Origin: a virus
Length of the DNA: 64,000 nucleotides
Direction: 5' to 3' (one strand)
UHGV virus genome: UHGV-1370579
Shown: piece by piece, positions 5,882-30,990 of the stretch
Layout: the number at the start of each line of letters is the position of its first letter
Numbering within the stretch: the first letter of the stretch is position 1
Notes under the pieces: generated by a model
The model's database searches: none
The model's input: only the letters and a program-made list of their open reading frames with translations
What the model was told of the DNA's origin: nothing
Translations under genes and position numbers: made by a program

Positions 5882-6165
5882 AGACAGAATCTACACATGA
5901 GCTACCAACAGCTCATGTAGACTGGCCCAAAGGACTTCAACCTTGTAGCTTTGACTTTAAGTTTGAAAAGAAATTAGCTACAAATGGAGAAGATGGTGTA
6001 GTAGTTGTTGTACCATATAAAGATTGGAATATGTTGGCAAAATGCCGTGAGGCAGAATATTCATATATTTCACGGCTGACAAGTATGGTTTGCTTCTATC
6101 GCCAAGATTTACAAGAAAAACGTTGCTTAGTTTACTATCCACCCATTAACAATAGGAAAGATTAA
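5812..6165 (+). CDS. putative o-spanin (Rz1-like outer-membrane lipoprotein)
   Basis: Lipobox LAAAITITGC; starts inside the 3' end of the preceding gene in another frame. Confidence 0.55.
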   Translation: MFNWKLGILLAAAITITGCAQEIKTESTHELPTAHVDWPKGLQPCSFDFKFEKKLATNGEDGVVVVVPYKDWNMLAKCREAEYSYISRLTSMVCFYRQDLQEKRCLVYYPPINNRKD

Positions 6166-6917
6166 TGTCAGTATTAGTAGGTCTGCATGGTGAGGCTGGT
6201 TCTGGAAAAGACACTGTTGCAAAATTAATTATCGATTGGTGTAATGACACGTATCCAACGTGTTTACCCCGTCGTTACAGTTTTGCTAAGCCCGTTTATG
6301 AACTTGCATCCGTAATCCTCGGTGTAACTCCAGAGTTTCTAGGAGAGCGCAGGGGGAAAGAGATTGACCAATGGTTTACGGTCACACAATCTCAATTGGA
6401 GCGAGCTAGAGATGTATGGTTTAAATACGGTATCGATAAGTTTGAAGACTTCTCGTACGTTTGGCCAATTTTTGAGGAAAAATATCTTAATCCTCAACAA
6501 CTTATCTCAGAGAATAAAGAAGACGGACTTTATAGTTTGTTTATTTCTCCGAGAAAAATGTTACAGCTCGTAGGAACAGAGCTAGGAAGGCAGCTGGTGC
6601 ATGAACGCATTTGGCTCATAATTCTGGAGCAATCCATCGCTAAAGACGACCCAGATGTCGCCGTAATAACAGATGTTAGATTCCCCAATGAAGGAGAGTT
6701 ACTCAGAGAAACAAACCATTTAGATATGGATTCTTTGATAGTAAATGTAGTACCCGCTGAGCAGAAGTTCACTATTAAATCAGATCATCCATCTGAAAGT
6801 GGTATTCCTGCAAAATATATCACTCACGAATTAGTTAATAAATTCGATGGTATCAATAACCTTAAACTAGAAGTGTATAACTTCTGTGACTTAGAGCTAG
6901 AACCACTAGTTGGATAA
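6165..6917 (+). CDS. dnk: deoxynucleoside monophosphate kinase
   Basis: P-loop GEAGSGKDT; 250 aa, matching the T5 dNMP kinase as recalled. Confidence 0.8.
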   Translation: MSVLVGLHGEAGSGKDTVAKLIIDWCNDTYPTCLPRRYSFAKPVYELASVILGVTPEFLGERRGKEIDQWFTVTQSQLERARDVWFKYGIDKFEDFSYVWPIFEEKYLNPQQLISENKEDGLYSLFISPRKMLQLVGTELGRQLVHERIWLIILEQSIAKDDPDVAVITDVRFPNEGELLRETNHLDMDSLIVNVVPAEQKFTIKSDHPSESGIPAKYITHELVNKFDGINNLKLEVYNFCDLELEPLVG

Positions 6918-7529: not shown

Positions 7530-7539
7530 GTAATTTTAA

Positions 7540-7570
7540 GCCAGGGTTTAACGACCCTGGCTTTTCTTTT
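7540..7570 (+). terminator. rho-independent terminator
   Basis: GCCAGGG...CCCTGGC plus TTTTCTTTT. Confidence 0.75.
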
Positions 7571-8829: not shown

Positions 8830-9246
8830 ATGTTTGCAGAACTATTCACTATGATGCTGCTAGGTATCTGGAAAATAAGTCTAGTAGTATTCGTTTTAAT
8901 GATAGTCTTTACTATCATTGCATTAACTACCCGAAATAGCTTATTAATAAAGGTTATTCACGGACTAGAGTATATAATTATGGGTTCATTCGGCGTTTGT
9001 AAATGCAATTGCCATAGAGATACGAAATATTGTTGGTTATGGATGGAACTAGAGAATCCTATATCCATAGCTTTGGCTGTTTCATTCGGTATGATTCTTA
9101 TGGCCCTTACTCTAGCATTAATACCTTTGATGTTAGCTGGGGGAGTTACAGCGTATTTCACCCTTTTCTCCCCGATACTTATGTACTCAATTTACCCAAT
9201 AACTATGTATCTAGTTAGGAAAAGATTTATACATGCAGTAGATTAA
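8830..9246 (+). CDS. multi-pass membrane protein
   Basis: ORF track; several hydrophobic helices. Confidence 0.45.
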   Translation: MFAELFTMMLLGIWKISLVVFVLMIVFTIIALTTRNSLLIKVIHGLEYIIMGSFGVCKCNCHRDTKYCWLWMELENPISIALAVSFGMILMALTLALIPLMLAGGVTAYFTLFSPILMYSIYPITMYLVRKRFIHAVD

Positions 9247-9259
9247 GATAAAAAAGTAG

Positions 9260-9288
9260 TTGACTTTCCGCTGAAATTTTTATATAAT
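9260..9288 (+). promoter_or_regulatory. early promoter TTGACT-17-TATAAT
   Basis: consensus; followed by a TATAAATTGA leader. Confidence 0.65.
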
Positions 9289-9321
9289 ATTTGTATAAAT
9301 TGAATCAGAGGAGTTTCACAA

Positions 9322-9732
9322 ATGTCAGATCGTTACTATACTCAGATGGCTAACCATTACAATATGGCTCCGTATGAATTGAACATCGCATTACGTGACC
9401 TCGATTCACCAGAGCGTGCAAAACTTGAGAAAAAGGCGGGAATTCGTATGTCTAGCAAGGGCAAGAAACTTACTCGTATTGACTTAAATACCATGCTAAT
9501 GGAAGAGCTTGGCGTGAATATTGAAGGTCAGAAGTTGCCTCTCAATGTTCTTGAAACGATGCTGGATAAAGTCAAAAAGAAAACCTATAAGAAAGTACAA
9601 GTACCGGAAGGCAGGCTAAAAGCCCCTTATCAGGCTGCTGTATCTGAGTGCTTAGGTGCTACCTTAGATCTTAGCACTGCAACTGTTAAAGTGATGAAGG
9701 CATTTTTGGAGGCCATTAATAAACATGAGTAA
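9322..9732 (+). CDS. hypothetical protein (136 aa)
   Basis: ORF track; RBS GAGGAG. Confidence 0.5.
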   Translation: MSDRYYTQMANHYNMAPYELNIALRDLDSPERAKLEKKAGIRMSSKGKKLTRIDLNTMLMEELGVNIEGQKLPLNVLETMLDKVKKKTYKKVQVPEGRLKAPYQAAVSECLGATLDLSTATVKVMKAFLEAINKHE

Positions 9733-10015
9733 ATTAGTATATCTATTAAAGGGATCTACCTGCAATCCGTGCAAAATGTTCGAGCCTGTATTCGATAAAG
9801 TAGTACAGGACTACAGTCTAGAAGTTCATAAAGAGACTGATAACACAGAACTTATGCAGAAATTTGGCGTTCGTCAGGTTCCTGTAGTAGTTCTAGCAGA
9901 TCGTCTCCCTAATGGTCGTGTGGAAGCCAACCACATTCTGATTGGTCGTCAGCTTCGTAAAGAAACTATGCACGATGCAATCAAAAACTTCCTGGAAGAT
10001 AATCCAGAAGATTAA
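9725..10015 (+). CDS. thioredoxin/glutaredoxin-like protein (CNPC)
   Basis: CxxC redox motif (STCNPCKMF) in a ~96 aa protein. Confidence 0.55.
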   Translation: MSKLVYLLKGSTCNPCKMFEPVFDKVVQDYSLEVHKETDNTELMQKFGVRQVPVVVLADRLPNGRVEANHILIGRQLRKETMHDAIKNFLEDNPED

Positions 10016-10023
10016 TAAATCCA

Positions 10024-10053
10024 ACCCAGATCTTAGCTGATCTGGGTTTTTTA
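10024..10053 (+). terminator. rho-independent terminator
   Basis: ACCCAGATC...GATCTGGGT plus TTTTTT. Confidence 0.8.
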
Positions 10054-10057
10054 TTAC

Positions 10058-10086
10058 TTGCTTTCTGCTAAAAATTTTGATATAAT
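10058..10086 (+). promoter_or_regulatory. early promoter TTGCTT-17-TATAAT
   Basis: consensus; leader TATAAATTGATGAGAGGAG. Confidence 0.65.
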
Positions 10087-10117
10087 ATATGTATAAATTG
10101 ATGAGAGGAGTATCACA

Positions 10118-10498
10118 TTGAATTACGCATATCTTATAATACATAACAACGTAGTTTGTGGTACTCGCGCTGTTGAGATGGGTATTACAGAAGAAAAGTA
10201 TAACTCTTTGTCTAAATCGGAGCAAGAATACTATGTTGAGCAAGCTGCTTGGGAATATGCTGATGTATATCCCAAAGAACGTGAAGGTCGCATTACTATT
10301 GTTGTATCTTTGGGCTTGGTTGGCGCTGATACCGAAGTTGATACAGATTTAGAAACGCTTGAAGAGTGGGAAGAATTAGATATTGGTGAACAAAACGCTA
10401 TTATCAAAACATCTTTCTGGGAAGCAGTAGCCTGCCATGTAGTCTTTGAGCCTAACGATAACGAAGCTGAAAAGCACACTAATTGGATGACTCGATAA
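10118..10498 (+). CDS. hypothetical acidic protein (TTG start)
   Basis: ORF track. Confidence 0.45.
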   Translation: MNYAYLIIHNNVVCGTRAVEMGITEEKYNSLSKSEQEYYVEQAAWEYADVYPKEREGRITIVVSLGLVGADTEVDTDLETLEEWEELDIGEQNAIIKTSFWEAVACHVVFEPNDNEAEKHTNWMTR

Positions 10499-18305: not shown

Positions 18306-18906
18306 GTCGGATTTGCACACTGACAGGAGTTTAAAAACTGGTCGGATTTGCACAAACGCCTAAGTTTTTAGGAACTCTTCCTCTCCTGAAAATAGCAGCA
18401 TTATTTCGGGCCGAAGGCCCGTGATTGCCTGAGTTTTTAGAGCCACAAGAATTTTCACTTGTCAAGCTATTTTGCCCCATTTTGCTAATAAAATTTTACT
18501 TTTTCTGCACCTATCTCAAATTTCCCCAAATTATCTCAACTCTTCCCCAAAATCCCCGCAAATCAGGTGCTCCGCACCAATCCTGCGCCCACATCCTTCT
18601 AACCCCAAAATTTCTCTCGCTCTCTCATCTTCTCCTCAAACCTATACAATCACACACCCTCCAATCGAAGTCACAAAAATCTTGTCGGATTCGCACAAAT
18701 AAACCCATGTCGGATTTGCACATATTCTAGCTAATTCCACAGGATTGATGCGCAGCATCGGATTGCTGGAGTTTTTAGGAAAATTCGTTGTCGGATTTGC
18801 ACACTATAAAAATTTTTCGGGTCGGATTTGCACACTACCAAAAATTGTCGGATTCGCACATACATGCCCACGCGTAACCCATGGGGGCAAATGTCGGATT
18901 TGCACA
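18306..18906 (+). repeat. eight direct copies of the 14-bp iteron GTCGGAT(T/C)(T/C)GCACA, in four pairs
   Basis: copies at 18306, 18341, 18684, 18709, 18790, 18821, 18847, 18893. Confidence 0.9.
18485..18670 (+). repeat. ~190-bp polypyrimidine (C/T) tract
   Basis: almost no G on the plus strand over this stretch. Confidence 0.8.
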
Positions 18907-18911
18907 AAAGC

Positions 18912-18929
18912 GCAGGGCAATTGCCCTGC
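18912..18929. repeat. perfect 18-bp palindrome GCAGGGCAATTGCCCTGC
   Basis: seen directly. Confidence 0.9.
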
Positions 18930-18937
18930 TCGCCTGA

Positions 18938-19122
18938 ATGCGAATGATAATGAGAATCAATCTCATTTAAAAAGTGAAATGCGAATGATAATGATTTGCA
19001 TTTAAGAAAGGGAATGAGAACTATTCAAGAAGTGAAATGAAAATTATTCAGGAAGTGAAACGATTCTCATTTAGAAAGTGGAACGCAAATGATAATGATT
19101 CGCATTTAAGAAGGGAAGTGAG
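18938..19122 (+). promoter_or_regulatory. ~105-bp direct repeat x2 containing dyad-symmetric AAATGCGAATGATAATGATTTGCATTT (Fur-box-like) elements
   Basis: Core AATGATAATGATT is one mismatch from the Fur-box core AATGATAATCATT. AGAAGTGAAA(T/C)G is repeated four times. Confidence 0.5.
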
Positions 19123-19139
19123 AAACACTGTTATTTAAG

Positions 19140-19148
19140 TTATCCACA
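19140..19148 (+). promoter_or_regulatory. consensus DnaA box TTATCCACA
   Basis: perfect 9-mer; second copy at 19201-19209. Confidence 0.6.
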
Positions 19149-19229
19149 GACTTATTAACAGCACGATTTGACTTGACAGAATCCTAGCCATTTTGAAGCG
19201 TTATCCACAGACTTATCCCCAGGTTATTC

Positions 19230-19249
19230 TACTGTATAAATATACAGTA
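19230..19249. promoter_or_regulatory. LexA (SOS) box-like palindrome TACTGTATAAATATACAGTA
   Basis: 19/20 match to the consensus TACTGTATATATATACAGTA. Confidence 0.55.
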
Positions 19250-19359
19250 TTCCTATGTAGTGAATAATTCTAATATACGCCTAAAACGTCCTGAATCGCA
19301 TTCTAACGCGTTTAATTTTGGCGGGGATACTAAAACAAATGGGTATTTATCTGGGGGCG

Positions 19360-19384
19360 TGAAAAACGGGGATCTGCTCCCCGC
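19360..19384 (-). terminator. rho-independent terminator ending the minus-strand cassette operon
   Basis: On the minus strand: GCGGGGA-gcaga-TCCCCG followed by TTTTTC. Confidence 0.7.
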
Positions 19385-19390
19385 TTGTTG

Positions 19391-19615
19391 TCAGTCCGGT
19401 AATTGATGCGTGATCTTCTCCTCCTCCCCGTAGGAATCGACCAAATGCTGATAATAACCATCGTGATCATAAATAACGCTATCATATTCGCCCCGCTCGA
19501 CCGCTTGCCGGTTTTCCGGCGTATCGGGCACGTAAAAAACATCAACCATCGTAGTAGTTTTGGTCACAACAATTTTATTGCTCATAATAACTCCTAGTAA
19601 ATATATTTTTGCCAA
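19391..19615 (-). CDS. cassette hypothetical protein (74 aa, or 64 aa from MSNK)
   Basis: ORF track. Confidence 0.45.
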   Translation of the reverse strand: MAKIYLLGVIMSNKIVVTKTTTMVDVFYVPDTPENRQAVERGEYDSVIYDHDGYYQHLVDSYGEEEKITHQLPD

Positions 19616-19815
19616 TAGCGGCGAACGTTATCGCCACCAGCGGAATCATTTGTAGCCTCAACATTACCAACGAAAATATATAGTTTCATAGTGCCATCGC
19701 TCCTAGAATGAGAATGATTATTATTACCATTACAAGCCCGTTACTAAATCGTAAACGCTGGGAAACATTCCCAGCGGTATTATTAGATTTATGGGATTGC
19801 GTTTTACGCCACCAG

Positions 19816-20016
19816 CTATTCACGGTAGACACGCCAGCCGTCTAGCTTCCATTCTTCCCCCTTGCGAATATTGAAAAACCAATCATTAAAATTGTAACCA
19901 TCTTCTGACATGATCACGCCGTTTTCTTTCATGTACAAAAATTCATCGCTAGTAAAATATTGATTACTAACTTTAAAACCTTGTTTCATTTTTTCTAGTG
20001 CTTCATCTTTAGTCAT
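19816..20016 (-). CDS. cassette hypothetical protein (66 aa, Trp/Tyr-rich)
   Basis: ORF track; 4-nt overlap with the upstream gene. Confidence 0.5.
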   Translation of the reverse strand: MTKDEALEKMKQGFKVSNQYFTSDEFLYMKENGVIMSEDGYNFNDWFFNIRKGEEWKLDGWRVYRE

Positions 20017-20357
20017 TGCGCCACCTTTCGAAACGCTGTTTCAATACTTTCAGCGGTTGATTGAATATACGCGCCTTTCATGATCAGGCGCTCAGTGCAT
20101 ACCTTGCGGAAAATATTAATAAAATCATCTTCATTTTCTGCAATTAATGCCTCACCCATGACCTGAATATCACACGATGCAAAGGTCAAAAATTGAAACG
20201 CTAGTTCACGGGCAACGACCGCATTAATTTTATAATGCGCCTTGCCTTCATAGATATTAATTACGCCTATATAAACTGGTGAAAGCTGGTTTAAATAGTT
20301 TGCTAATAATGCCGGTCGGCAAATAGCAACAAAACGATTGCCCTCATAAATTACCAT
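20013..20357 (-). CDS. cassette hypothetical protein (114 aa)
   Basis: ORF track. Confidence 0.5.
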   Translation of the reverse strand: MVIYEGNRFVAICRPALLANYLNQLSPVYIGVINIYEGKAHYKINAVVARELAFQFLTFASCDIQVMGEALIAENEDDFINIFRKVCTERLIMKGAYIQSTAESIETAFRKVAQ

Positions 20358-20484
20358 TTGACAGCCTCCCGATCAGGTATCCAGATAAAAGCATAAAAAT
20401 CCCCAGTAAAAGGGGATCATTTTTAAATAAGGTGGCGGTAAAACCGCCAACCATTGCAAGGCTAATAATGATAACGCTTTTCAT
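20344..20484 (-). CDS. small hydrophobic peptide (46 aa, MKSVIIISLAMVGGFTATLF...), not in the ORF track
   Basis: ATG overlaps the TGA of the upstream 70-aa gene (ATGA). 3' end overlaps the start of the 114-aa gene by 14 nt. Confidence 0.45.
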   Translation of the reverse strand: MKSVIIISLAMVGGFTATLFKNDPLLLGIFMLLSGYLIGRLSNGNL

Positions 20485-20693
20485 AGTACCCCACGAAACG
20501 CAGCGTAAAAGGTGGCAAAATGTTTAACCGTTTCAGCTATCACATTGCCGCGCTTATCAAATTTCTTTTCTGTAACACGAAAGGCATTTTTGTTACGTGC
20601 TACATATTCAATTTTACAATCTTCACGCTCAAACGTGTTTACATCCACCAGCTTAAAGCCTTTCGAACGTGCAAGGGAAACGTTGCGGATCAT
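20481..20693 (-). CDS. cassette hypothetical basic protein (70 aa)
   Basis: ORF track; AAGGAG RBS embedded in the end of the upstream peptide gene. Confidence 0.5.
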   Translation of the reverse strand: MIRNVSLARSKGFKLVDVNTFEREDCKIEYVARNKNAFRVTEKKFDKRGNVIAETVKHFATFYAAFRGVL

Positions 20694-20695
20694 TT

Positions 20696-20845
20696 TTATT
20701 CTCCTTTACCAGTCATGCAGCCCAGCAGATAAGAAAATGCGGCGATACCCGCGCCGATAATAACGGCGTGAACACCGAAAGCTATTGCAAACAACGATAA
20801 AATGGCGCCCAAGATACCAGCTAAAATAGCCCGAAAAATAACCAT
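20696..20845 (-). CDS. small hydrophobic peptide (49 aa, MVIFRAILAGILGAILSLFAIAFGVHAVIIGAGIAAFSYLLGCMTGKGE), not in the ORF track
   Basis: Glycine-zipper-like single TM helix. Stop lies 3 nt before the start of the 70-aa gene. Confidence 0.45.
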   Translation of the reverse strand: MVIFRAILAGILGAILSLFAIAFGVHAVIIGAGIAAFSYLLGCMTGKGE

Positions 20846-20894
20846 TTGTACTACTCCCCTAGTTAGTGGGGCGAAAGTAACGCCCCGTTATTAA

Positions 20895-21125
20895 TTACAT
20901 TAAAACAATTTTAGCGGCTTGTTTTTTGGTGCAATGTTCCGCCTTCAGGGTATCCAGCAAAAAGCCAGCCGTTTGCTGATCAATCTTATCAGCGTTATAC
21001 AATTCTTGGATGGTGTTATAAGTTTTAGCAATGCCATATTCTTGCACCATTTCGTGAATAATAACGCGGTTAGATACCCAGCCTTGAGCGGTGAACAGAT
21101 GACTAGCAGAAGAATAAGCAACCAT
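20895..21125 (-). CDS. cassette hypothetical protein (76 aa)
   Basis: ORF track. Confidence 0.45.
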   Translation of the reverse strand: MVAYSSASHLFTAQGWVSNRVIIHEMVQEYGIAKTYNTIQELYNADKIDQQTAGFLLDTLKAEHCTKKQAAKIVLM

Positions 21126-21229
21126 TTTAAGCCTCCAATTTTTTGGGAAATTTTCAATCCACCGTTTTGGTGTAAAAGCATTATAACAAAAAAGGCCACC
21201 ATAAAAGGCGACCTTTACAAAACTTTACA

Positions 21230-21724
21230 TTAGACTACTTGTAAGGATTCAATATTGAAACATCGTTTCAATTCGTCATGCAAAACAGCGTATTCCTCCC
21301 ATCGGGTACTATCAGGAATATAAACAAGCTGTTTTAATCGGTTTGCGTATATTACCGCTTTGTTACCAACTATCTCGACGCCACCATATTTAATAATTAA
21401 TTTCATGACGGAATTAATAGGATCGCCGCCGTTTACATATGTGCCGGATTTACTTAATTGATAATGATAAAGGCTTGCATATACATTATCATTCTCATAC
21501 CATTCGCCAGTATCTTCGTCTTCATAGCCATCGCTACCAAAACGAGAAGCATTATCAATAGCCCTTTCGTGAGCTAAAGCGTCCAGATCCGTACCAGCAG
21601 GAACAAAATATTCCTCGGTATTCCCTTCCCCGCAGTAACCCGTATGACAATCAACCAAAATGATCATATCATGTTTAGCCGTGCTCACTTCTCCCAGTGA
21701 GAAGCCATATTTTTCTTCTGACAT
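21230..21724 (-). CDS. cassette hypothetical acidic protein (164 aa from MSEEKY)
   Basis: Strong RBS AGGAGGctaattATG at the internal Met. The ORF track gives 21230..21772. Confidence 0.55.
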   Translation of the reverse strand: MSEEKYGFSLGEVSTAKHDMIILVDCHTGYCGEGNTEEYFVPAGTDLDALAHERAIDNASRFGSDGYEDEDTGEWYENDNVYASLYHYQLSKSGTYVNGGDPINSVMKLIIKYGGVEIVGNKAVIYANRLKQLVYIPDSTRWEEYAVLHDELKRCFNIESLQVV

Positions 21725-21759
21725 AATTAGCCTCCTATTAATTAACAAGGGAATAATAA

Positions 21760-21778
21760 AGCGGGGAAACAATCCCCG
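21760..21778 (-). terminator. intergenic hairpin GCGGGGA-aacaa-TCCCCGC inside the cassette operon (attenuator-like)
   Basis: 7-bp GC stem followed by TTTATTATT on the minus strand. Confidence 0.4.
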
Positions 21779-21790
21779 CTAAATTAGTTA

Positions 21791-22795
21791 TTACTCGCTT
21801 TCGGTGCTAGTGGTAAAAGTAGAAATATCAATACCTTTCACCATTTCATCAATCATTTCAGCGATATTAAAACTTTGTACCATTTCTAACATAGCCGCTT
21901 CCATAGCTGCACCTGCCACCGCTTTCGCCTTTTGGTTACTTGGGGCGTACTGGTCAACCGCTACGCTCAGCAGGTTGGCAATCACTACTCGACCGATGGG
22001 TGTATCAATATAACCTTTAATCATAAACGGTGCTTTTTTAGCCGCTACTTTCGTAATTTGAGTCAGTGCAATTTTACCCGCTTCCAGTTTTGCAGCGTTT
22101 ACAACAGCGGATTTATTAGCGGCAACAATATTAGCGATCTTGGTCATGGTGTTTTTTCCTTTATTTTCAGTAGTTTGCGCATTTGCGCTTGAAGTTTGAG
22201 ATGGTACAGCCTGTTTTGCTACGTTGTCAACTGGTTTTAGTGTAAATCCAGCATTTGCAACATTTGTTTCACCCCCATACTCTAAATAATCGTTAGGGAT
22301 CAACATGTTACCCGTTGACTTTTCAAAACACAATACGCCAGTTGTTTCGATTGCGTTACTATCAGCACCTTTATAACTGGATGATAATTCACGCCAGATA
22401 CTATTTAATAACGATCCGACACTATCCAATCTGATATTATTTACTTTTGTTGCTGTTACCTGCTCTTTTTCTTGCACGTTATATAATCGCGCAATGTAAC
22501 CACTATGAGACTCACTATAACCAACAATGATAAAATCAATATCAGTCCCCCGACTATTACGGAAAATGTGATAATCACGGTTGAAAATTACTAGCGCCCC
22601 TGTCTGGTCTAGTAATAGCGTGAAATCATCAACTGAATAATGAGTATCATTATTGTCTAAAATTTCATCGTGAATCTTTTCAATAATAGTAGCAGTATGT
22701 TGTACACTTGCCGCACTACTACCATCTAGCAGGTTACGCAAACTACCTTTAACAATAGTGGCGTTTGCTGGTACTGCAATTCTTACAGTAGACAT
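21791..22795 (-). CDS. cassette hypothetical protein (334 aa), first gene of the minus-strand operon
   Basis: ORF track; RBS GAGGGAG 7 nt upstream; no recognisable catalytic motif. Confidence 0.6.
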   Translation of the reverse strand: MSTVRIAVPANATIVKGSLRNLLDGSSAASVQHTATIIEKIHDEILDNNDTHYSVDDFTLLLDQTGALVIFNRDYHIFRNSRGTDIDFIIVGYSESHSGYIARLYNVQEKEQVTATKVNNIRLDSVGSLLNSIWRELSSSYKGADSNAIETTGVLCFEKSTGNMLIPNDYLEYGGETNVANAGFTLKPVDNVAKQAVPSQTSSANAQTTENKGKNTMTKIANIVAANKSAVVNAAKLEAGKIALTQITKVAAKKAPFMIKGYIDTPIGRVVIANLLSVAVDQYAPSNQKAKAVAGAAMEAAMLEMVQSFNIAEMIDEMVKGIDISTFTTSTESE

Positions 22796-23042
22796 TTCTT
22801 TGTCTCCCTCGTTAATCGGTGAGTGAATGATATAGATAATTGTTCGCTAAGGGCAAGAAAAAAGAAAAGGTTTTTTATTCCTTGCCTTATGCTTGTTTTT
22901 ATGATAACCGCGCGTTTCCTATTTCTAGCTCTCTGTAATCGTACACAAGGCTTTATTATAACAAGGGCAGCAGTGAGAAAACGCCGTGTAGCGCGTTTTA
23001 GGCCGCTTAAATTTGATTGCGGTTGTTACTGCTACCCTTCTA

Positions 23043-23062
23043 CCCTGTATATTTATACAGTA
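23043..23062. promoter_or_regulatory. LexA box-like palindrome (minus strand reads TACTGTATAAATATACAGGG)
   Basis: 18/20 to the consensus; sits ~250 bp upstream of the 334-aa gene start on its coding strand. Confidence 0.5.
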
Positions 23063-23143
23063 GGATAACCTGTATATAAGTCTGTGTAAAAGTCGCCAAA
23101 ACGTCGCCTATTGCGTCAAGTTATTTTACAAAATGTATAAGTC

Positions 23144-23152
23144 TGTGGATAA
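23144..23152 (-). promoter_or_regulatory. consensus DnaA box (TTATCCACA on the minus strand)
   Basis: perfect 9-mer. Confidence 0.55.
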
Positions 23153-23342
23153 CTTAAATGATAGTGGTTCTCACTAACTAATTTATACAGTTATTATATA
23201 ACAAAATATAGTTAGTTGGCTAATAGGATTTTAAAGTGATTATGAGTCTGCTAATTAAACCTGAAAAACTCATTAGCTAGCCTGCTATTAATTTTGTTAT
23301 AATATAATAGAGATTAAACTAATAACATAAGGAAACAATTAA

Positions 23343-23861
23343 ATGCCTAAGTATAAAGATATAGATTATGACCTTTTTAATAGTTACTTTTATTATGATG
23401 AAACGTCGTTATCGTTTTTACGTTGGCGAGAAGATCACGCCATCGCAGGTGGTTTAAATGGTAATTATTGGCAAGTTGAACTATTAGACATGGGACAATT
23501 CAAAGTACATAGAATTATCTTTTGTATAATGAATGGCGGTATAGATAGCGAGCTAATGATTGACCATATTGATCGTAACACTCGTAATAATAACATCTGG
23601 AATCTTCGCGCGGTTGATAGTTCGCAGAATAATTATAATCGCACTCCTAGTGAGTATGAAAATTGTAAGCGTGCTAATGGTATCCCTAAAAACATTTACG
23701 TTAATAAAGTTCGCCCCCGTGATAGTTACGGGCGTGACTATTTGACTGCTCAAATTAAGAATCCTATTACTAACAAGCGTGTTAGTAAGTCTGGTTATGA
23801 TTTACAAGAGTTATTATTATGGCTTGAAATTAAAAAAGCTGAATTTGGAATTGTCAATTAA
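23343..23861 (+). CDS. HNH homing endonuclease (HNH_3 plus AP2-like)
   Basis: HRIIFCIMNG...IDHIDRNTRNNNIWNLR motif; AT-rich. Confidence 0.75.
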   Translation: MPKYKDIDYDLFNSYFYYDETSLSFLRWREDHAIAGGLNGNYWQVELLDMGQFKVHRIIFCIMNGGIDSELMIDHIDRNTRNNNIWNLRAVDSSQNNYNRTPSEYENCKRANGIPKNIYVNKVRPRDSYGRDYLTAQIKNPITNKRVSKSGYDLQELLLWLEIKKAEFGIVN

Positions 23862-25148: not shown

Positions 25149-25556
25149 ATGACTAACGCAAAAACCGCAAAATTCGCATGGAATGAAGAAAACACTCAGA
25201 AAGCTGTTACCATGTACCAGCAGTTAATCAACGAAAACGGTTTAGATTTTGCAAATAGCGACGGCCTGAAAGAGATTGCAAAAGCAGTAGGCGCGGCCTC
25301 CCCCGTATCCGTTCGCTCAAAATTGACCAGTGCAAAAGCCTATCAGAAAAGCGATAAGCCGCGTAAAGTTGGCGGCGGCAGTTCCATTCGTAAAGCGCAT
25401 TATGTGCGTGTTATTGCAAAACATGCGATCGATTCCGGCATTATCAAAGACGCCGATGATCTGGCAAGTCTGGAAAGTGCAAAATTGGAAACGCTGGACG
25501 CCGTGGCGCAACTGTTAGGCGTTGCCGATGAAGTAAAACAAGCCGCAGGTGAATAA
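25149..25556 (+). CDS. pre-early hypothetical protein (135 aa)
   Basis: ORF track; conserved leader. Confidence 0.55.
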   Translation: MTNAKTAKFAWNEENTQKAVTMYQQLINENGLDFANSDGLKEIAKAVGAASPVSVRSKLTSAKAYQKSDKPRKVGGGSSIRKAHYVRVIAKHAIDSGIIKDADDLASLESAKLETLDAVAQLLGVADEVKQAAGE

Positions 25557-25933: not shown

Positions 25934-27604
25934 ATGATTATTTCCGCAGAAAAACAAACCGTTATCCTGAAAATGGCCGCTGACTTTAACTTCTACGGTA
26001 AACGCCTGCGCGCCACTAAATTGGAAGTTTGTGACGATATTTCGAAAGCGGTATACGATACTACTAAACACTCCACCGCCATTTGTGATTGGTTGGAAGC
26101 AAATAAACCAGCGAAACCAAAAGCGGCAAAAGTAGCAAAAGCCATTAAAAATGATGAGCGCCCAGAAGCGGCTGGGATTGTTTCTAGTACGGTGGAGCAA
26201 TGGGAAGTAAAACAAGGTAAACGCTTTATTATTACATCGATTCAGAATAATACTTTCCCGCATAAAAACTTTTTAGCCTCACTGGAGCAATTTGCTAAAT
26301 ATATCGGTGCTGATTTGCTTGTTTCTAAGTATATTTATAATAAAAACGGTTTTCAAAATGGGGAAGGTGCGGATGGAATCAAATATGATTCCGCGTTCGA
26401 TAAATATATTTGCAGCAAAAACGTGTTTTTAAATAACCGCCGCTTTGCTTTCATGGCTGAAATTAATGTTTTGCCAACCGCAGATTATCCGCTTTCTGGA
26501 TTCGCCGAGACTGCAACGGCTTTAAATATTGAGGGGCTGGCAATTGGTCACGCTAAAATTACCGCTGAAAGCGTGCCAGCTTTAAAAGGTGAAGTAGTGC
26601 GCCGTATGTATTCAACCGGAACGGCAACGTTAAAAAACTACATTCAGCAGAAAGCAGGACAAAAGGCCGAGGCGCTGCATAACTTCGGTGCGCTGATTGT
26701 CGAGTTCGACGAGGACGGGGAATTTTTTGTTCGCCAGCTTGAAACAATGGACGAAAGCGGGGTGTTTTATGATCTGAACGTTTGCGCTACTCCTGCCGGA
26801 TGCTATGAGACATCGGGGCATGTTTTAGGCTTGCAGTATGGCGATATTCACGCCGAAAAATTAGATGAGGAGTGCGCCGCCGCATCTTGGGGGCATGGTG
26901 ATACTTATGGGCTAGTAGATATTCTTAAACCAAAATATCAGTTTGTGCATGACGTTCACGATTTTACATCCCGCAATCATCATAACCGCGCATCCGGTGT
27001 ATTCCTAGCTAAACAATACGCCGCCGGACGTGATAAAGTTCTGGATGATCTTATCGATACGGGGCGCGTGCTAGAATCAATGGAACGTGATTTTAGTCAA
27101 ACAATCATTGTTGAATCTAATCACGATTTGGCGCTATCCCGTTGGCTTGATGATCGTAATGCTAACATCAAAGACGATCCAGCAAACGCCGAGTTATATC
27201 ACCGCCTGAATGCCGCTATTTACGGAGCTATTGCAGAAAAAGACGATACTTTCAACGTGCTAGATTATGCGCTGCGCAAGGTTGCAGGCTGTGAATTTAA
27301 CGCCATTTTCCTGACCACTGACCAATCTTTCAAGATTGCAGGCATCGAGTGCGGCGTACACGGTCACAACGGCATTAACGGGAGCCGTGGCAATCCGAAA
27401 CAGTTTAAGAAATTGGGCAAATTAAACACCGGACACACCCACACCGCCAGCATTTACGGCGGCGTTTATACCGCTGGCGTATCGGGGAGCCTCGATATGG
27501 GTTACAATGTTGGCGCGTCAAGCTGGACGCAAACGCATGTTATTACCTATGCAAACGGTCAGCGTACTTTGATCGACTTTAAGAACGGTAAATTCTTTGC
27601 GTAA
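25934..27604 (+). CDS. A1: pre-early protein A1 (556 aa, metallophosphoesterase-like)
   Basis: Same length as T5 A1; GDIHAE, HDVHD and ESNHD phosphoesterase-like motifs. Sits with A2 and dmp. Confidence 0.8.
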   Translation: MIISAEKQTVILKMAADFNFYGKRLRATKLEVCDDISKAVYDTTKHSTAICDWLEANKPAKPKAAKVAKAIKNDERPEAAGIVSSTVEQWEVKQGKRFIITSIQNNTFPHKNFLASLEQFAKYIGADLLVSKYIYNKNGFQNGEGADGIKYDSAFDKYICSKNVFLNNRRFAFMAEINVLPTADYPLSGFAETATALNIEGLAIGHAKITAESVPALKGEVVRRMYSTGTATLKNYIQQKAGQKAEALHNFGALIVEFDEDGEFFVRQLETMDESGVFYDLNVCATPAGCYETSGHVLGLQYGDIHAEKLDEECAAASWGHGDTYGLVDILKPKYQFVHDVHDFTSRNHHNRASGVFLAKQYAAGRDKVLDDLIDTGRVLESMERDFSQTIIVESNHDLALSRWLDDRNANIKDDPANAELYHRLNAAIYGAIAEKDDTFNVLDYALRKVAGCEFNAIFLTTDQSFKIAGIECGVHGHNGINGSRGNPKQFKKLGKLNTGHTHTASIYGGVYTAGVSGSLDMGYNVGASSWTQTHVITYANGQRTLIDFKNGKFFA

Positions 27605-28432: not shown

Positions 28433-29167
28433 ATGAATAAATCTATTACTAATTCTTTCCGTACTTTCCCGCATATTTCCCGCGTCATGATTTGGGATCT
28501 GGACGGCACTATCATTAATTCTTTCCATCGTGTAGCGCCTTGCTTTGATAGTGAGGGCAATTTAGATTTAAATAAGTATAAGAATGAAGCGTGTAAACAT
28601 CATTTAATAATGCAGGATTCATTATTACCATTAGTTGAATATATGCGCCAGTGCATGAATGATGTTAATACGTTAAACATTATCTGCACCGCTCGACTGA
28701 TGAGCAAGTCGGATTATTATTACCTACGCAAGCAAGGACTGCGAGGGCGTGGGGATAGCAATATCCGCGTATTTTCCCGCGATACACTACACAAATATTT
28801 TGAAGCTGATAAAGTTAGCGAAATATACCACAGTAAGGACGCAGTTTATAAATCTTATTATTTTGAATTATTTAAACAGTTATATCCGAACGCTGATTTT
28901 ACAATGATTGACGATCATAAAGGCGTGCTATCAGCGGCTGCGTCATACGGATTTAAAACGCTGGACGCGCAAGCTATTAACGATATTCTATCAATCGGTG
29001 TCACATTGATAGGTGAAACCTTTATTGATGAGTCGCTCGATGATGATAATGATTATCAATTCCTAGCCGACCGCCTGCAATTATGTTGGGAAAGTATGAC
29101 CGAAGAAGAACGCGCAGAATATAGTTGCAGCCCGCAACAATATATTGAGAAATTAAAAGTTGCCTAA
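28433..29167 (+). CDS. dmp: 5'-deoxyribonucleotidase Dmp (HAD family)
   Basis: HAD motif I WDLDGTIINS; 244 aa as recalled for T5 dmp; last gene of the pre-early block. Confidence 0.8.
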   Translation: MNKSITNSFRTFPHISRVMIWDLDGTIINSFHRVAPCFDSEGNLDLNKYKNEACKHHLIMQDSLLPLVEYMRQCMNDVNTLNIICTARLMSKSDYYYLRKQGLRGRGDSNIRVFSRDTLHKYFEADKVSEIYHSKDAVYKSYYFELFKQLYPNADFTMIDDHKGVLSAAASYGFKTLDAQAINDILSIGVTLIGETFIDESLDDDNDYQFLADRLQLCWESMTEEERAEYSCSPQQYIEKLKVA

Positions 29168-29184
29168 CAATTAAGATTGAGATT

Positions 29185-29221
29185 GTTTCACCTTGCAATT
29201 AAAATGGTTGCAGGGTGAAAC
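29185..29221. terminator. 14-bp-stem hairpin GTTTCACCTTGCAA...TTGCAGGGTGAAAC after dmp
   Basis: seen directly; no T-run. Confidence 0.45.
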
Positions 29222-29338
29222 AGTTAGCATGGTAATAGTAACACAGGGGGATTATTAGACTACTAACTATCCCCAGTCCCACTGAGCACATCCGCATGTG
29301 TAATCTTATGAAATTTCAAGATTTTCAAATTAGCGCTA

Positions 29339-29812
29339 TTAACCGTGGTTTGTGAACTCACCACATACTTTCTCACGTGCTTCCCTTATCGCACTTTCAG
29401 CTTCCTCAAGACTCTCGAAATAGGCCGAGATAAAATACTTACCTTGGTGTCTACCGCGTGCTCTCCACTTCTTACGAGTGTTATCCCAGTATACTCCCTT
29501 AACTCCCGAGATATTGTTCTTAGATAGACGCTGATTCGCTAAGTTCTGCTCATGTGATGCTTTACGAAGATTATTCTTTCTATTATCTAGTCCCTCACAG
29601 TTTTTATGGTCTATGAGAGATTCTCCGGGATCTTCTCCGTAGATGCACCACCAAGCTAGGCGATGCACTCTAAACTCTCCGAACTGTGGGTGACGATATA
29701 TGAGATAACCTTCACTTTCCTTAGTATACCCTATAATAGGCAGGAATCGCCCCGTATCTGGATCATATGAAAAACTACCAGCTATTTCATCAGGGATTTT
29801 CTTAAATATCAT
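29339..29812 (-). CDS. HNH-AP2 homing endonuclease
   Basis: HRLAWW...IDHKN..LDNR..NLR (HNH) plus an AP2-like GVYWDNTRKKWRARGRHQGKYF. Confidence 0.8.
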   Translation of the reverse strand: MIFKKIPDEIAGSFSYDPDTGRFLPIIGYTKESEGYLIYRHPQFGEFRVHRLAWWCIYGEDPGESLIDHKNCEGLDNRKNNLRKASHEQNLANQRLSKNNISGVKGVYWDNTRKKWRARGRHQGKYFISAYFESLEEAESAIREAREKVCGEFTNHG

Positions 29813-30054
29813 GAACTTCTCCTATCTACTGGCTTATCTCCCGATTCTGACATACGAAATCTCTTCCGCGACGCCCGAGATCCATCAGACCATTCTCGCT
29901 CAAACTCCGCACGTTTCTCCGCAAACCTCCGCTCTCTTTCCGAAAGCTCTCGCGATACCCCCGCAATATATTCACGATGTTTGTTAATAGCCCCGAGTGT
30001 TCCGAAGATTCCCGCAAGTACCCCGATAATGAAGATAGCTACAAAACTAAACAT
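29809..30054 (-). CDS. small membrane protein (81 aa)
   Basis: ORF track; N-terminal TM. Confidence 0.45.
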   Translation of the reverse strand: MFSFVAIFIIGVLAGIFGTLGAINKHREYIAGVSRELSERERRFAEKRAEFEREWSDGSRASRKRFRMSESGDKPVDRRSS

Positions 30055-30242
30055 TACTTGTCTCCCCGCAGCTTACGTTCTATACGAGCTAAGTGGTTAT
30101 CTAAGATGCACTGCCCTATAATTACCACAACTAGTAAAGCAATAATTACTACTTCCATTATAACCACCCCGCCATAGCTGCTAACCAAAAGAGTACAAAG
30201 ATAAAGAATAACACAGTCCCGAATCCGAAAGAATTTATCCAA
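30054..30242 (-). CDS. small membrane protein (62 aa)
   Basis: ORF track; hydrophobic core. Confidence 0.4.
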   Translation of the reverse strand: MDKFFRIRDCVILYLCTLLVSSYGGVVIMEVVIIALLVVVIIGQCILDNHLARIERKLRGDK

Positions 30243-30273
30243 CTTTCATATACTTCCCCTCTTTTATTTTTAC

Positions 30274-30855
30274 TCATTTATTTAACTCCTCCACACTAAA
30301 AACTTTGTATCCCTTAAATAACTCCTGAACTGCACGTGGTCCATGAAACTGTACACGCATCGTATTAGCCTTCTCCACCGCTAACTTTAGATCTTGGTAG
30401 GGAAAGAATCCTCCAGATATTTGATTACCTTTACTATCTTGTACTCTAACTTGCCATTTTTGTTTTAATTTATTCCAGGATACTCCTAGGTAACCAGATA
30501 TACCCCAAGAAGGTCTATTACGCATATTTTCCTGCCTAGATGCATCAAATAGATTATCCCACCTATTATCATCTCTAACTCTATTATCATGGTCCACTTC
30601 TACGGGCATATATCCTTCCATGTATAAGAAGGCCAGTCTATGCGCTCTATAAGGTAGTCTGTCAATACGAATTACTATATAGCCATCTTTATCTCGTGTA
30701 CCTGCTATACTACCTGCTTTTTTGTTTCCTCTACTTTGTAAATTTACAAATATACCGGTATTCGGGTCGTACCTTAGCACTTCTTTTAATCTTTCTTGCG
30801 TTAGCACGCTGCTTCTCCTGTAAGCCTGGTATTTGGAAGATTCTAGATATTGCAC
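30274..30855 (-). CDS. HNH-AP2 homing endonuclease
   Basis: HRLAFLYMEGYMPVEVDHDNRVRDDNRWDNL plus GVSWNKLKQKWQVRV. Confidence 0.8.
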   Translation of the reverse strand: MQYLESSKYQAYRRSSVLTQERLKEVLRYDPNTGIFVNLQSRGNKKAGSIAGTRDKDGYIVIRIDRLPYRAHRLAFLYMEGYMPVEVDHDNRVRDDNRWDNLFDASRQENMRNRPSWGISGYLGVSWNKLKQKWQVRVQDSKGNQISGGFFPYQDLKLAVEKANTMRVQFHGPRAVQELFKGYKVFSVEELNK

Positions 30856-30990
30856 GAACCATTATGACTGTCCCGATAAGATCCATTACTTCATCGAAGC
30901 CGGATTCTTCTATTAAGAAGGATGTTCCCATCACTTCTTCTATTGTATCTTCTATGACGTCTTGAATGATTTCATCAATTGCATCATGTA
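30856..30990 (-). pseudogene. start-less acidic ORF fragment (…AIHDAIDEIIQDVIEDTIEEVMGTSFLIEESGFDEVMDLIGTVIMV) running into the HNH gene
   Basis: Open frame with no start codon upstream; continues out of frame over the HNH N-terminus (ORF track 30731..30934). Confidence 0.3.

What the first reader, a model, noticed from the sequence alone, without database searches (positions are those of the whole stretch)
19129..23159. Inverted-repeat-bounded 3.7-kb cassette of nine opposite-strand genes inside the pre-early region
Every other gene from 0.1 to 29.2 kb is on the plus strand. Here nine ORFs (334, 164, 76, 49, 70, 46, 114, 66 and 74 aa) form one minus-strand operon. Its own RBSs differ from the conserved pre-early leader, it has an internal attenuator-like hairpin, and it ends in a clean rho-independent terminator (19360-19384). 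The block is bracketed by ~170-bp imperfect inverted repeats, 19129-19312 and 22985-23159. These share a 23-bp identical block (ATTTAAGTTATCCACAGACTTAT), a ~41-bp block and a GCCTAAAACG motif, and each carries DnaA boxes and a LexA-box-like palindrome. This looks like an insertion into, or an inversion about, a palindromic iss-type region. As recalled, T5 transcribes all pre-early genes in one direction. None of the nine proteins has a recognisable catalytic motif. A cargo module delivered with the first-step-transfer DNA could plausibly be a host-takeover, anti-defence or exclusion system.
Basis: partly seen in the sequence, partly recalled or inferred. Interest (0 to 1): 0.78.

Follow-up and report, generated by a model that had tools for sequence, protein, structure and literature searches.

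The report
T5 pre-early operon between known repeats
The flagged block is the standard second pre-early operon of T5-like phages (genes 011 to 017 plus three accessory genes), lying between the already described DnaA-box inverted repeats of the injection-stop region, so it is ordinary and not a new insertion.

Summary
Nine minus-strand genes (19391-22795) lie between two imperfect inverted repeats (cores 19117-19258 and 23041-23175). Each repeat carries paired DnaA boxes and a near-consensus LexA-type palindrome.

The interpretation as a novel cargo insertion fails. The window is a T5-like phage (Tequintavirus-type). The flanking repeats are the published 131-bp IRC-spacer-IRD and IRD'-spacer-IRC' elements (Davison, bioRxiv 10.1101/866236).

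All 22 distinct close relatives sampled, plus T5, EC100, phiR2-01 and DT571/2, share this orientation and these flanks. None of 592 matching phage records shows the flipped junction.

Published work reports that 011, 013 and 015 are toxic host-takeover genes, that 015 is an Ung-dependent nickase, and that the block is dispensable in the laboratory.

Three points go beyond what I found in the literature:
- The module is inverted, gene order kept, in Myunavirus and Sugarlandvirus.
- The LexA-like palindromes are conserved as far as a Vibrio phage, and no paper I could search links them to LexA.
- The rare 66-aa gene looks Tad2-like, but below threshold.

Verdict: already known; low interest.

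The parts
19117..19258 (.). Arm on the injection-stop side, equivalent to T5 IRD'-spacer-IRC'. It holds DnaA-box pairs TTATCCACA-GAC-TTATTAACA (19140-19160) and TTATCCACA-GAC-TTATCCCCA (19201-19221), then the palindrome TACTGTATAAATATACAGTA (19230-19249).
   Evidence: It is 94% identical to T5 9403-9541. It is conserved in 539 phage records, mostly with 2 or 4 places per record.
19359..19386 (-). Rho-independent terminator that ends the operon (GCGGGGAGCAGAUCCCCGU followed by UUUUU).
   Evidence: -14.3 kcal/mol. T5 annotates a terminator at the equivalent place, 9275-9296.
19391..19615 (-). T5.017 homologue. It is 74 aa from a TTG start; the conserved part is residues 8-74.
   Evidence: 93% identity to T5.017; PHROG 6973. 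Present in 18 of 22 close relatives.
19816..20016 (-). 66-aa accessory gene in the position of T5.016. Candidate Tad2-like (DUF2829) protein.
   Evidence: No T5 homologue. Present in 2 of 22 relatives. Pfam Tad2-like E = 0.0055, 17.7 bits, below the cut-off of 25. Best PDB sequence hit is SPO1 Tad2, E = 0.02. The AlphaFold2 model has pLDDT 81.6. Its top Foldseek hit is 8smf_G Tad2, probability 0.90, TM 0.61.
20013..20357 (-). T5.015 homologue (114 aa). In T5 this is the Ung-dependent nickase of abasic sites.
   Evidence: 95.6% identity to T5.015. Function taken from PMC8201957 and bioRxiv 10.64898/2026.04.02.716235.
20344..20484 (-). 46-aa hydrophobic accessory peptide.
   Evidence: No T5 homologue. 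Present in 9 of 22 relatives. PHROG 19184.
20481..20693 (-). T5.014 homologue (70 aa).
   Evidence: 100% identity to T5.014. PHROG 4227 carries the 'Ung nickase' label, which probably belongs to T5.015.
20696..20845 (-). T5.013 homologue (49 aa, two hydrophobic segments). T5 gene 013 is reported to be toxic and lytic when expressed alone.
   Evidence: 67% identity to T5.013. Function.
20895..21125 (-). T5.012 homologue (76 aa).
   Evidence: 83% identity.
21191..21216 (-). Terminator-like hairpin after the 164-aa gene.
   Evidence: -15.1 kcal/mol, z = -4.8, followed by UUUUUU.
21230..21724 (-). 164-aa accessory gene, absent from T5 and homologous to My1_018. Fold has no solved relative.
21760..21780 (-). 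Hairpin after the 334-aa gene. It corresponds to T5's annotated putative terminator at 7534-7559.
   Evidence: -18.2 kcal/mol, z = -6.0.
21791..22795 (-). T5.011 homologue (334 aa, Pfam DUF7566). The N-terminal two thirds are variable and the C-terminal ~110 aa are almost invariant. T5 gene 011 is reported to be toxic and to disturb the nucleoid.
   Evidence: Pfam E = 9e-137. 58% identity to T5.011. Alignment A2. Function.
22827..22856 (-). Sigma-70 promoter of the operon (-35 TTGCCC, -10 TATCAT, A/T-rich upstream region).
   Evidence: It aligns with T5's annotated promoter at 6411-6489; the stretch from the -10 hexamer to the RBS is almost invariant. The T5 promoter upstream of 011 is described as experimentally characterised.
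23041..23175 (.). A1-proximal arm, equivalent to T5 IRC-spacer-IRD. It holds the palindrome CCCTGTATATTTATACAGTA (23043-23062) and DnaA boxes on the minus strand at 23083-23091 (TTTTACACA) and 23144-23152 (TTATCCACA).

Best explanation
This is the canonical second pre-early transcription unit of T5-like phages. It lies in the terminal repeat that enters the cell in the first-step transfer.

Shown here by homology:
- A sigma-70 promoter orthologous to the T5 promoter upstream of gene 011 drives a leftward operon.
- The operon order is 011, [164 aa], 012, 013, 014, [46 aa], 015, [66 aa], 017. Brackets mark accessory genes that come and go between relatives.
- It ends at a rho-independent terminator just inside the injection-stop region.
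- The two flanking inverted repeats are the conserved IRC-spacer-IRD and IRD'-spacer-IRC' elements. Each has two DnaA-box pairs spaced 3 bp apart, plus a 20-bp palindrome.

Taken from the literature on T5:
- The products are non-essential host take-over effectors. 011 disturbs the nucleoid, 013 damages the envelope, and 015 nicks abasic sites made by host Ung.
- The repeats are proposed, not proven, to be part of the injection-stop signal through DnaA binding.

Inferred here:
- The repeats have also acted as substrates for homologous recombination, because the whole module is flipped between them in Myunavirus and Sugarlandvirus.
- Gene flux (164 aa, 46 aa, 66 aa) occurs inside the conserved arms in the manner of morons.
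For: Identity of the phage and the region:
- The window is about 91% identical to Tequintavirus genomes, and the block maps to the terminal repeat.
- The T5 annotation shows the same layout, promoter, terminators and iss feature.
- Six of the nine proteins are T5.011-.015 and .017 homologues at 58-100% identity.
- The promoter and leader align with T5.

The arms:
- They align with T5 6098-6228 and 9403-9541.
- They match the published description: DnaA boxes in pairs 3 bp apart, and a repeat at both ends of a variable coding region.
- The arm is conserved in 539 phage records.

Orientation:
- It is identical in all 22 distinct Markadamsvirinae-like segments and in four annotated genomes.
- It is inverted, with order kept, in all 4 distinct My1-type and Sugarland-type segments. 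Homology is confirmed by alignment and by fold.
- The spacer signatures of the arms are swapped in the inverted genomes.

Functions.
Against: - Nothing here measures transcription, injection stop or protein activity in this phage.
- The DnaA and injection-stop role of the arms is a published hypothesis without direct test.
- The IMG/VR relatives were found through 011, so phages lacking 011 (DT57C type) are under-sampled.
- The swap of spacer signatures rests on small identity differences (75 against 71%, 69 against 63%). One arm in phiR2-01 is a hybrid, so gene conversion could mimic the swap.
- My1 and IME260 have one to three extra minus-strand genes between the iss arm and the flipped module, so one breakpoint may not lie exactly in the arm.
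Confidence: 0.9

Rival explanations
1. A foreign cargo cassette recently inserted into the pre-early region, bounded by its own terminal inverted repeats like a transposon.
For: The block is bracketed by inverted repeats and lies on the opposite strand. Gene content between the arms varies between relatives.
Against: - T5 and every close relative sampled have the block in the same place and orientation.
- No transposase or recombinase family is found in any of the nine proteins.
- The arms persist where most of the block is deleted (DT571/2) and in a Vibrio phage with different genes. They therefore belong to the phage backbone, not to the cargo.
Confidence: 0.03
2. A programmed invertible switch: the segment flips at appreciable frequency within a phage population, changing what is expressed, as in Gin/Cin/Hin systems or shufflons.
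For: Inverted repeats of about 135 nt flank a self-contained promoter-to-terminator module. Both orientations exist across Demerecviridae.
Against: - No invertase gene is present.
- The promoter lies inside the segment, so flipping would not switch expression.
- A synthetic flipped-junction query found 0 of 592 matching phage records with at least 80% coverage in one place.
- Orientation follows deep taxonomy, not strain.
- Consensus assemblies cannot exclude a minor flipped subpopulation.
Confidence: 0.05
3. The arms are mainly operators read by host LexA and DnaA. They control or insulate pre-early transcription, or hold the first-step DNA, and the palindromes are true SOS boxes. Their being inverted repeats is a by-product of needing the same protein-binding array at both ends of the module.
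For: - The palindrome at 19230-19249 matches the E. coli SOS-box consensus TACTGTATATATATACAGTA (consensus from my own knowledge) at 19 of 20 positions. The one at 23043-23062 matches at 17 of 20.
- There are only two such sites in 64 kb, against 0.01 expected.
- The site is present in nearly every locus examined.
- The 50-nt unit of DnaA pair plus palindrome is 86% identical in Vibrio phage VCPH, whose A1 is only about 33% identical. This fits recognition by conserved host proteins.
- A -35/-10-like pair overlaps a DnaA box and abuts the palindrome on the minus strand at 23090-23062.
Against: - No binding data exist.
- The experimentally known promoter of 011 lies about 190 nt downstream of the palindrome, not over it.
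- The palindrome could equally be the site of the phage DNA-binding protein A2.
- T5 grows on recA-deficient laboratory strains (my own knowledge), so LexA cleavage cannot be required for infection.
- This reading is compatible with the best explanation and is not a replacement for it.
Confidence: 0.3

Closest known systems
Phage T5 pre-early genes T5.011-T5.017 with the flanking IRC-spacer-IRD (T5 6022-6152) and IRD'-spacer-IRC' (T5 9332-9462) repeats. Sources: NC_005859; Davison, bioRxiv 10.1101/866236; Annor et al., bioRxiv 10.64898/2026.04.02.716235.
   Same: - Same position in the terminal repeat and same strand relative to dmp/A1/A2.
- Orthologous promoter, internal hairpin and terminator.
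- Orthologues of 011, 012, 013, 014, 015 and 017.
- Same two arms with paired DnaA boxes and the palindrome.
   Different: - Three extra genes (164 aa, 46 aa, 66 aa) and no T5.016.
- The 011 allele is only 58% identical to T5's in total. It is 81% identical to the protein in two IMG/VR genomes, and its 5' DNA is about 93% identical to Salmonella phages such as BD13, 1-19 and BSP22A.
- None of the 22 sampled relatives carries all nine genes together.
Pre-early regions of Pectobacterium phage My1 (Myunavirus) and Klebsiella phage IME260 (Sugarlandvirus), which are Davison's Type 2 and Type 3.
   Same: The same two arms with DnaA boxes and palindromes. Homologues of 011, the 164-aa protein and (in My1) 017 lie between them in the same internal order.
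   Different: - The module lies on the same strand as A1, that is, flipped. The published description calls it 'missing and replaced by ORFs read in the opposite direction', not inverted.
- Extra minus-strand genes lie next to the iss arm.
SPO1 Tad2 (Gp34.65; PDB 8SME/8SMF; Pfam PF11195), a sponge for Thoeris gcADPR signals.
   Same: The 66-aa protein has Tad2 as its best hit in three searches: Pfam, PDB sequences and predicted fold.
   Different: All scores are below family thresholds. The protein is about 25 residues shorter. Ligand-binding residues were not examined. DUF2829 proteins are numerous, and most have not been tested for function.
Gin/Cin/Hin invertible segments and shufflons.
   Same: A gene-bearing segment between inverted repeats that is found in both orientations in related genomes.
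   Different: There is no recombinase. The promoter lies inside the segment. Orientation is fixed within subfamilies.

Membership tests
T5-type pre-early operon 011-017 between IRC-spacer-IRD and IRD'-spacer-IRC' | Lies in the terminal repeat, between the A2/hegG side and the injection-stop repeats. | tested here: met
   The gene order in the window is dmp-A1-A2-007-(HNH)-arm-module-arm-iss repeats.
T5-type pre-early operon 011-017 between IRC-spacer-IRD and IRD'-spacer-IRC' | Orthologues of T5.011-T5.017 on the strand opposite A1/A2/dmp. | tested here: met
   011 58%, 012 83%, 013 67%, 014 100%, 015 96%, 017 92%. T5.016 is absent; it is reported in under 15% of Demerecviridae.
T5-type pre-early operon 011-017 between IRC-spacer-IRD and IRD'-spacer-IRC' | Two inverted arms of about 131 bp, each with two DnaA-box pairs separated by 3 bp. 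| tested here: met
   The internal 17-nt repeat recurs at a 61-nt spacing in both arms (D12 and D15). The published 52-bp spacer could not be measured exactly without the authors' repeat boundaries.
T5-type pre-early operon 011-017 between IRC-spacer-IRD and IRD'-spacer-IRC' | Own promoter upstream of 011 and a terminator before the iss region. | tested here: met
T5-type pre-early operon 011-017 between IRC-spacer-IRD and IRD'-spacer-IRC' | Expressed before second-step transfer. | not testable with these tools
   Reported for T5 and Bas33. No expression data exist for this phage.
Injection stop signal (iss) | A cis-acting site at which DNA entry pauses at about 8% of the genome. | not testable with these tools
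   Only the position and the homology to T5's annotated iss (9140-10149) are shown.
Site-specific invertible segment (Gin/Hin type) | A serine or tyrosine invertase encoded in or beside the segment. | tested here: not met
   No recombinase family was found in Pfam, PHROGs or NCBIfam for any of the nine proteins or the neighbouring HNH gene.
Site-specific invertible segment (Gin/Hin type) | Both orientations present among close relatives or within a population. | tested here: not met
   0 of 592 records carry the flipped junction. 22 of 22 distinct close segments share one orientation. Within-population heterogeneity cannot be tested here.
Transposon or IS-bounded cassette | A transposase, and presence/absence polymorphism of the whole unit including its terminal repeats. 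| tested here: not met
   No transposase. The arms remain when genes are deleted or replaced.
LexA operator (SOS box) | CTGT-N8-ACAG with an A/T-rich centre close to TACTGTATATATATACAGTA. | tested here: met
   19 of 20 at 19230-19249 and 17 of 20 at 23043-23062. The consensus is from my own knowledge.
LexA operator (SOS box) | Bound by LexA and overlapping a regulated promoter. | not testable with these tools
   Only a weak promoter-like match abuts the palindrome at 23090-23062. The known 011 promoter lies about 190 nt away.
Tad2 / DUF2829 (PF11195), for the 66-aa protein | Score above the Pfam gathering threshold. | tested here: not met
   17.7 bits against a cut-off of 25. 12 of 14 homologues match weakly, best E = 0.004.
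Tad2 / DUF2829 (PF11195), for the 66-aa protein | Tad2 fold. | tested here: inconclusive
   The top Foldseek hit in the PDB is 8smf_G at probability 0.90, TM 0.61, E = 0.21; the next hit has probability 0.09. Model pLDDT is 81.6, but only one of the five models was confident.
Ung-dependent AP-site nickase T5.015, for the 114-aa protein | Orthology to T5.015. | tested here: met
   95.6% identity over 114 aa. The activity itself was not tested.

The most novel reading that the evidence does not exclude
The 20-bp palindromes at the inner end of each arm are real LexA operators. Host LexA, together with DnaA, would then read the first-step-transfer DNA at both ends of the 011-017 module. This would couple pre-early expression, or the anchoring and pausing of the injected DNA, to the SOS state of the cell.

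The same arms have served as the crossover sites that flipped the module between subfamilies of Demerecviridae.

Neither point appears in the papers I could search. Heusterspreute 1987, Wang 2005 and Davison 2015 could not be read.
Probability: 0.15. Interest if true: 0.6.

Novelty: already known. Interest (0 to 1): 0.25.

Why it matters
The main finding matters little, because it rediscovers the textbook layout of the T5 first-step-transfer DNA.

The side results could matter modestly. How T5 stops and restarts DNA entry is still unsolved after decades. A near-consensus SOS box beside the DnaA boxes, conserved from coliphages to a Vibrio phage, names a second testable host factor for that signal.

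Recognising that Myunavirus and Sugarlandvirus carry an inverted module, not a replaced one, simplifies comparative maps of pre-early genes. It also extends the known range of 011 and the 164-aa protein.

A Tad2-like gene delivered in the first 8% of the genome would be a sensible anti-Thoeris device, if confirmed.

Tried and rejected
1. A flipped-junction query (window 18700-19258 joined to the reverse complement of 22300-23040) against 50,697 phage records gave no record with at least 80% coverage in one place. The best, at 68%, is simply the native A1-proximal junction.
3. NCBIfam gave nothing for any of the nine proteins. Apart from DUF7566 and the weak Tad2-like match for these nine, Pfam matched only HNH_3 on the neighbouring HNH endonuclease that was scanned with them.
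4. PDB sequence searches for the 334-aa and 164-aa proteins gave only chance-level hits.
5. A profile built from the close homologues of the 66-aa protein did not improve the Tad2 match (E = 0.056), because the homologues are too similar to one another.
6. Davison 2015 (PMC4743489) and the supplement of Mahata 2021 are not held, and the afdb50 library was unavailable. I therefore could not check whether the inversion or the LexA resemblance was noted earlier, nor settle which ORF was cloned as '015'.
7. I considered a model in which LexA cleavage releases the injection block. I rejected it as an essential mechanism because T5 grows on recA-deficient strains (my own knowledge).
8. Promoter-like matches in the region (19 found, 15 expected) are not enriched, so I drew nothing from them beyond the 011 promoter, which is supported by homology.

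Full report
**What the window is.** Window 18500-23800 matches 466 phage records, and window 1-25000 matches 525. Almost all are T5-like phages of Escherichia, Salmonella and Klebsiella. The best matches over 25 kb are about 91-92% identical (Salmonella phage WP85, BUCT632, EC100). The window runs in the reverse orientation to the T5 reference. Window ~18.9-29.2 kb corresponds to the terminal repeat that holds the pre-early genes. A1 is at 25934-27604, A2 at 25149-25556 and dmp at 28433-29167, all on the plus strand.

**Checking the observation.** The nine minus-strand ORFs exist with the stated lengths. The remaining long ORFs up to 29.2 kb are on the plus strand, apart from shadow ORFs, as in the annotation of EC100.

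The inverted repeats are real.
- There is a 39-nt block at 92% identity and a 77-nt block at 77%.
- Arm against arm gives 131 nt at 76%, E = 6e-21.
- The 23-nt identical block and the GCCTAAAACG motif can be read directly.

Four of the seven DnaA-consensus matches in 64 kb lie in the arms. The CTGTAT-N4-ATACAG palindrome occurs only twice, against 0.01 expected by chance, once at the inner end of each arm.

The terminal terminator (19359-19386), the hairpin after the 334-aa gene (21760-21780) and a further hairpin after the 164-aa gene (21191-21216) all fold well and are followed by U-runs.

**What it is.** The T5 reference NC_005859 places dmp, A1, A2 and hegG on one strand and T5.011-T5.017 on the other. 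It also annotates a promoter at 6411-6489, a putative terminator after T5.011, another after T5.017, and the injection stop signal just beyond.

Six of the nine window proteins are orthologues of T5 proteins: 011 at 58%, 012 at 83%, 013 at 67%, 014 at 100%, 015 at 96% and 017 at 92% identity. The 164-aa, 46-aa and 66-aa proteins have no T5 counterpart, and T5.016 is missing. The promoter and leader upstream of the 334-aa gene align with the T5 promoter; the stretch from the -10 hexamer to the RBS is almost invariant.

The two arms align with T5 6098-6228 and 9403-9541. These are the published inverted repeats IRC-spacer-IRD and IRD'-spacer-IRC'. [quoted passage not shown] The window shows these pairs: TTATCCACA-GAC-TTATTAACA and TTATCCACA-GAC-TTATCCCCA. 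The arm sequence is found in 539 phage records, typically twice per record, or four times where both terminal repeats were deposited.

**Relatives.** I sampled 35 loci from IMG/VR through the 011 protein, which gave 26 distinct inter-arm segments. I added annotated genomes from INPHARED.
- All 22 distinct segments whose A1 is at least 90% identical to the window's have the module on the strand opposite A1. The 5' end of 011 lies next to the A1-proximal arm, and the last gene of the module (017 where present, 18 of 22) lies next to the iss arm.
- T5, EC100 and phiR2-01 show the same arrangement, and so does DT571/2, which has lost 011 and 012.
- 011, 014 and 015 are present in 22 of 22, 012 in 21, 013 in 20 and 017 in 18.
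- The accessory genes are patchy: the 164-aa gene in 10, the 46-aa gene in 9 and the 66-aa gene in 2. No sampled relative has all nine.
- A synthetic query that imitates the flipped junction found no record with at least 80% coverage among 592 matching records.

**How it works.** For T5, ectopic expression shows that 011, 013 and 015 are toxic. 011 disturbs nucleoid organisation, 013 (two transmembrane segments) causes lysis, and 015 is a nickase that cuts abasic sites made by host Ung. [quoted passage not shown] In the related phage Bas33 the pre-early region is transcribed and translated when infection is arrested after the first-step transfer. By homology, the window's operon is a set of non-essential host take-over effectors, expressed from its own promoter as soon as the first 8% of the genome is inside the cell. 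That step is inferred, not shown, for this phage.

**Results beyond the literature I could read.**

First, the module is inverted in other subfamilies.
- In Klebsiella phage IME260 (Sugarlandvirus) and Pectobacterium phage My1 (Myunavirus) the same two arms are present.
- Homologues of 011 (34% identity over the full length in IME260; 53% over the conserved C-terminal domain in My1), of the 164-aa protein (about 35%), and in My1 of 017 (47%), lie on the same strand as A1. Their internal order is the same.
- The predicted fold of the 164-aa protein matches My1 J9QP87 at TM 0.78.
- All four distinct segments of these types are flipped.
- Davison described this region as missing and replaced by ORFs read in the opposite direction. 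The data here show an inversion of a homologous module.
- The spacer signatures of the arms are swapped in the flipped genomes. The IME260 iss arm is 75% identical to the window's proximal arm and 71% to its iss arm; for My1 the figures are 69% and 63%. This suggests the crossover lay in the outer, most similar block (window 19117-19155 and 23137-23175).
- The hybrid proximal arm of phiR2-01 shows that gene conversion between arms also occurs, so this point is suggestive only.
- My1 and IME260 carry one to three extra minus-strand genes beside the iss arm.

Second, the palindrome.
- TACTGTATAAATATACAGTA matches the E. coli LexA-box consensus at 19 of 20 positions (consensus from my own knowledge).
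- A CTGT-N8-ACAG palindrome was found in nearly every locus examined that carries the arms, usually at both of them.
- Vibrio harveyi phage VCPH, whose A1 is about 33% identical, has the same layout. DnaA-box pairs plus CCCTGTATATTTATACAGTA come first, then five opposite-strand genes, then a second cluster of DnaA boxes and two such palindromes, then A2-A1-dmp.
- The 50-nt unit is 86% identical to the window. Such conservation of non-coding DNA beside strongly diverged phage proteins points to conserved host readers.
- No paper in the searchable library connects LexA with the T5 injection-stop region. Three key older papers could not be read.
- The known 011 promoter is not over the palindrome, and T5 grows on recA-deficient strains (my own knowledge). 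Any LexA role would therefore be modulatory.

Third, the 66-aa protein has SPO1 Tad2 as its best match in three independent ways, all weak.
- Pfam Tad2-like at E = 0.0055, below threshold.
- PDB sequence search at E = 0.02.
- Foldseek top hit 8smf_G at probability 0.90 and TM 0.61, with the next hit at probability 0.09.

It is a candidate anti-Thoeris protein, not a member by the family's own cut-off.

**Verdict.** The structure is real, but it is the known architecture of the T5 first-step-transfer DNA. I rate it already known, with low interest. Three leads have some value: the inversion between subfamilies, the SOS-box-like palindromes, and the Tad2-like accessory gene.

Noticed in passing
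window 19816-20016 (minus): The 66-aa accessory protein, in the place of T5.016, has SPO1 Tad2 (Thoeris anti-defence) as its best hit by Pfam, PDB sequence search and predicted fold. All three are below the usual thresholds. It is rare among relatives (2 of 22), and Salmonella phage 1-19 encodes a 98%-identical protein (P0004).
   Followed up: partly
window 20481-20693 and 20013-20357 (minus); T5 NC_005859 T5.014 / T5.015: RefSeq and PHROG 4227 put the product name 'endonuclease nicking abasic sites generated by host Ung' on the 70-aa T5.014 family. The papers name T5.015/015, which is the 114-aa ORF in NC_005859. The DT571/2 notes show T5.015 = T5p014, so the label may have slipped by one gene.
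   Followed up: partly
window 19230-19249 and 23043-23062; loci L001-L044: The central dinucleotide of the LexA-like palindrome is AA in some arms and TT in others (TATAAATATA against TATATTTATA, which are reverse complements). The choice is not always mirrored between the two arms of one genome, for example L014. This looks like flipping or gene conversion within the palindrome.
   Followed up: no
window 21791-22795 (minus): The 011 protein is a mosaic. The C-terminal ~110 residues are nearly invariant across Markadamsvirinae and about 70% conserved in My1 and IME260. The N-terminal two thirds are highly variable (58% overall identity to T5). The window's 5' allele is about 93% identical in DNA to Salmonella phages BD13, 1-19 and BSP22A, although the rest of the window is closest to Tequintavirus genomes.
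   Followed up: partly
window 21191-21780 (minus): The 164-aa gene lies between two terminator-like hairpins. That places it after the terminator that follows 011 in T5, and it has a terminator of its own, as a moron would. Some homologues (P0045, P0046, P0048, P0050, P0051) carry an inserted CPEC...C..C zinc-ribbon-like loop.
   Followed up: partly
window 23343-23861 (plus): An HNH homing endonuclease occupies the same site as T5 hegG, between repeat regions 1 and 2. It is only 56% identical to hegG and 98% identical to the EC100 gene. Several relatives lack it, so different HNH alleles appear to occupy one insertion site.
   Followed up: no
window 18683-19128: Dense direct repeats lie just outside the finding. 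There are six copies of TGTCGGATT(C/T)GCACA at 18683-18908, a 60-nt unit repeated at 18961 and 19065 (87%), and five copies of a 25-nt unit. These presumably correspond to the DRD and DRE repeats of the T5 injection-stop region.
   Followed up: no
L044 (Vibrio phage VCPH) 441-552 and 2953-3162: A distant Demerecviridae phage of Vibrio harveyi keeps the arm architecture (DnaA-box pairs plus CTGT-N8-ACAG palindromes) on both sides of five opposite-strand genes. None of these genes was matched by the window's proteins in a brief look, and no tblastn was run on this locus.
   Followed up: partly
window ~29200-30900: Immediately after dmp (the genome's left end in T5) the coding strand switches to minus. 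This suggests the source record is a permuted or collapsed-terminal-repeat assembly and not the linear virion genome.
   Followed up: no
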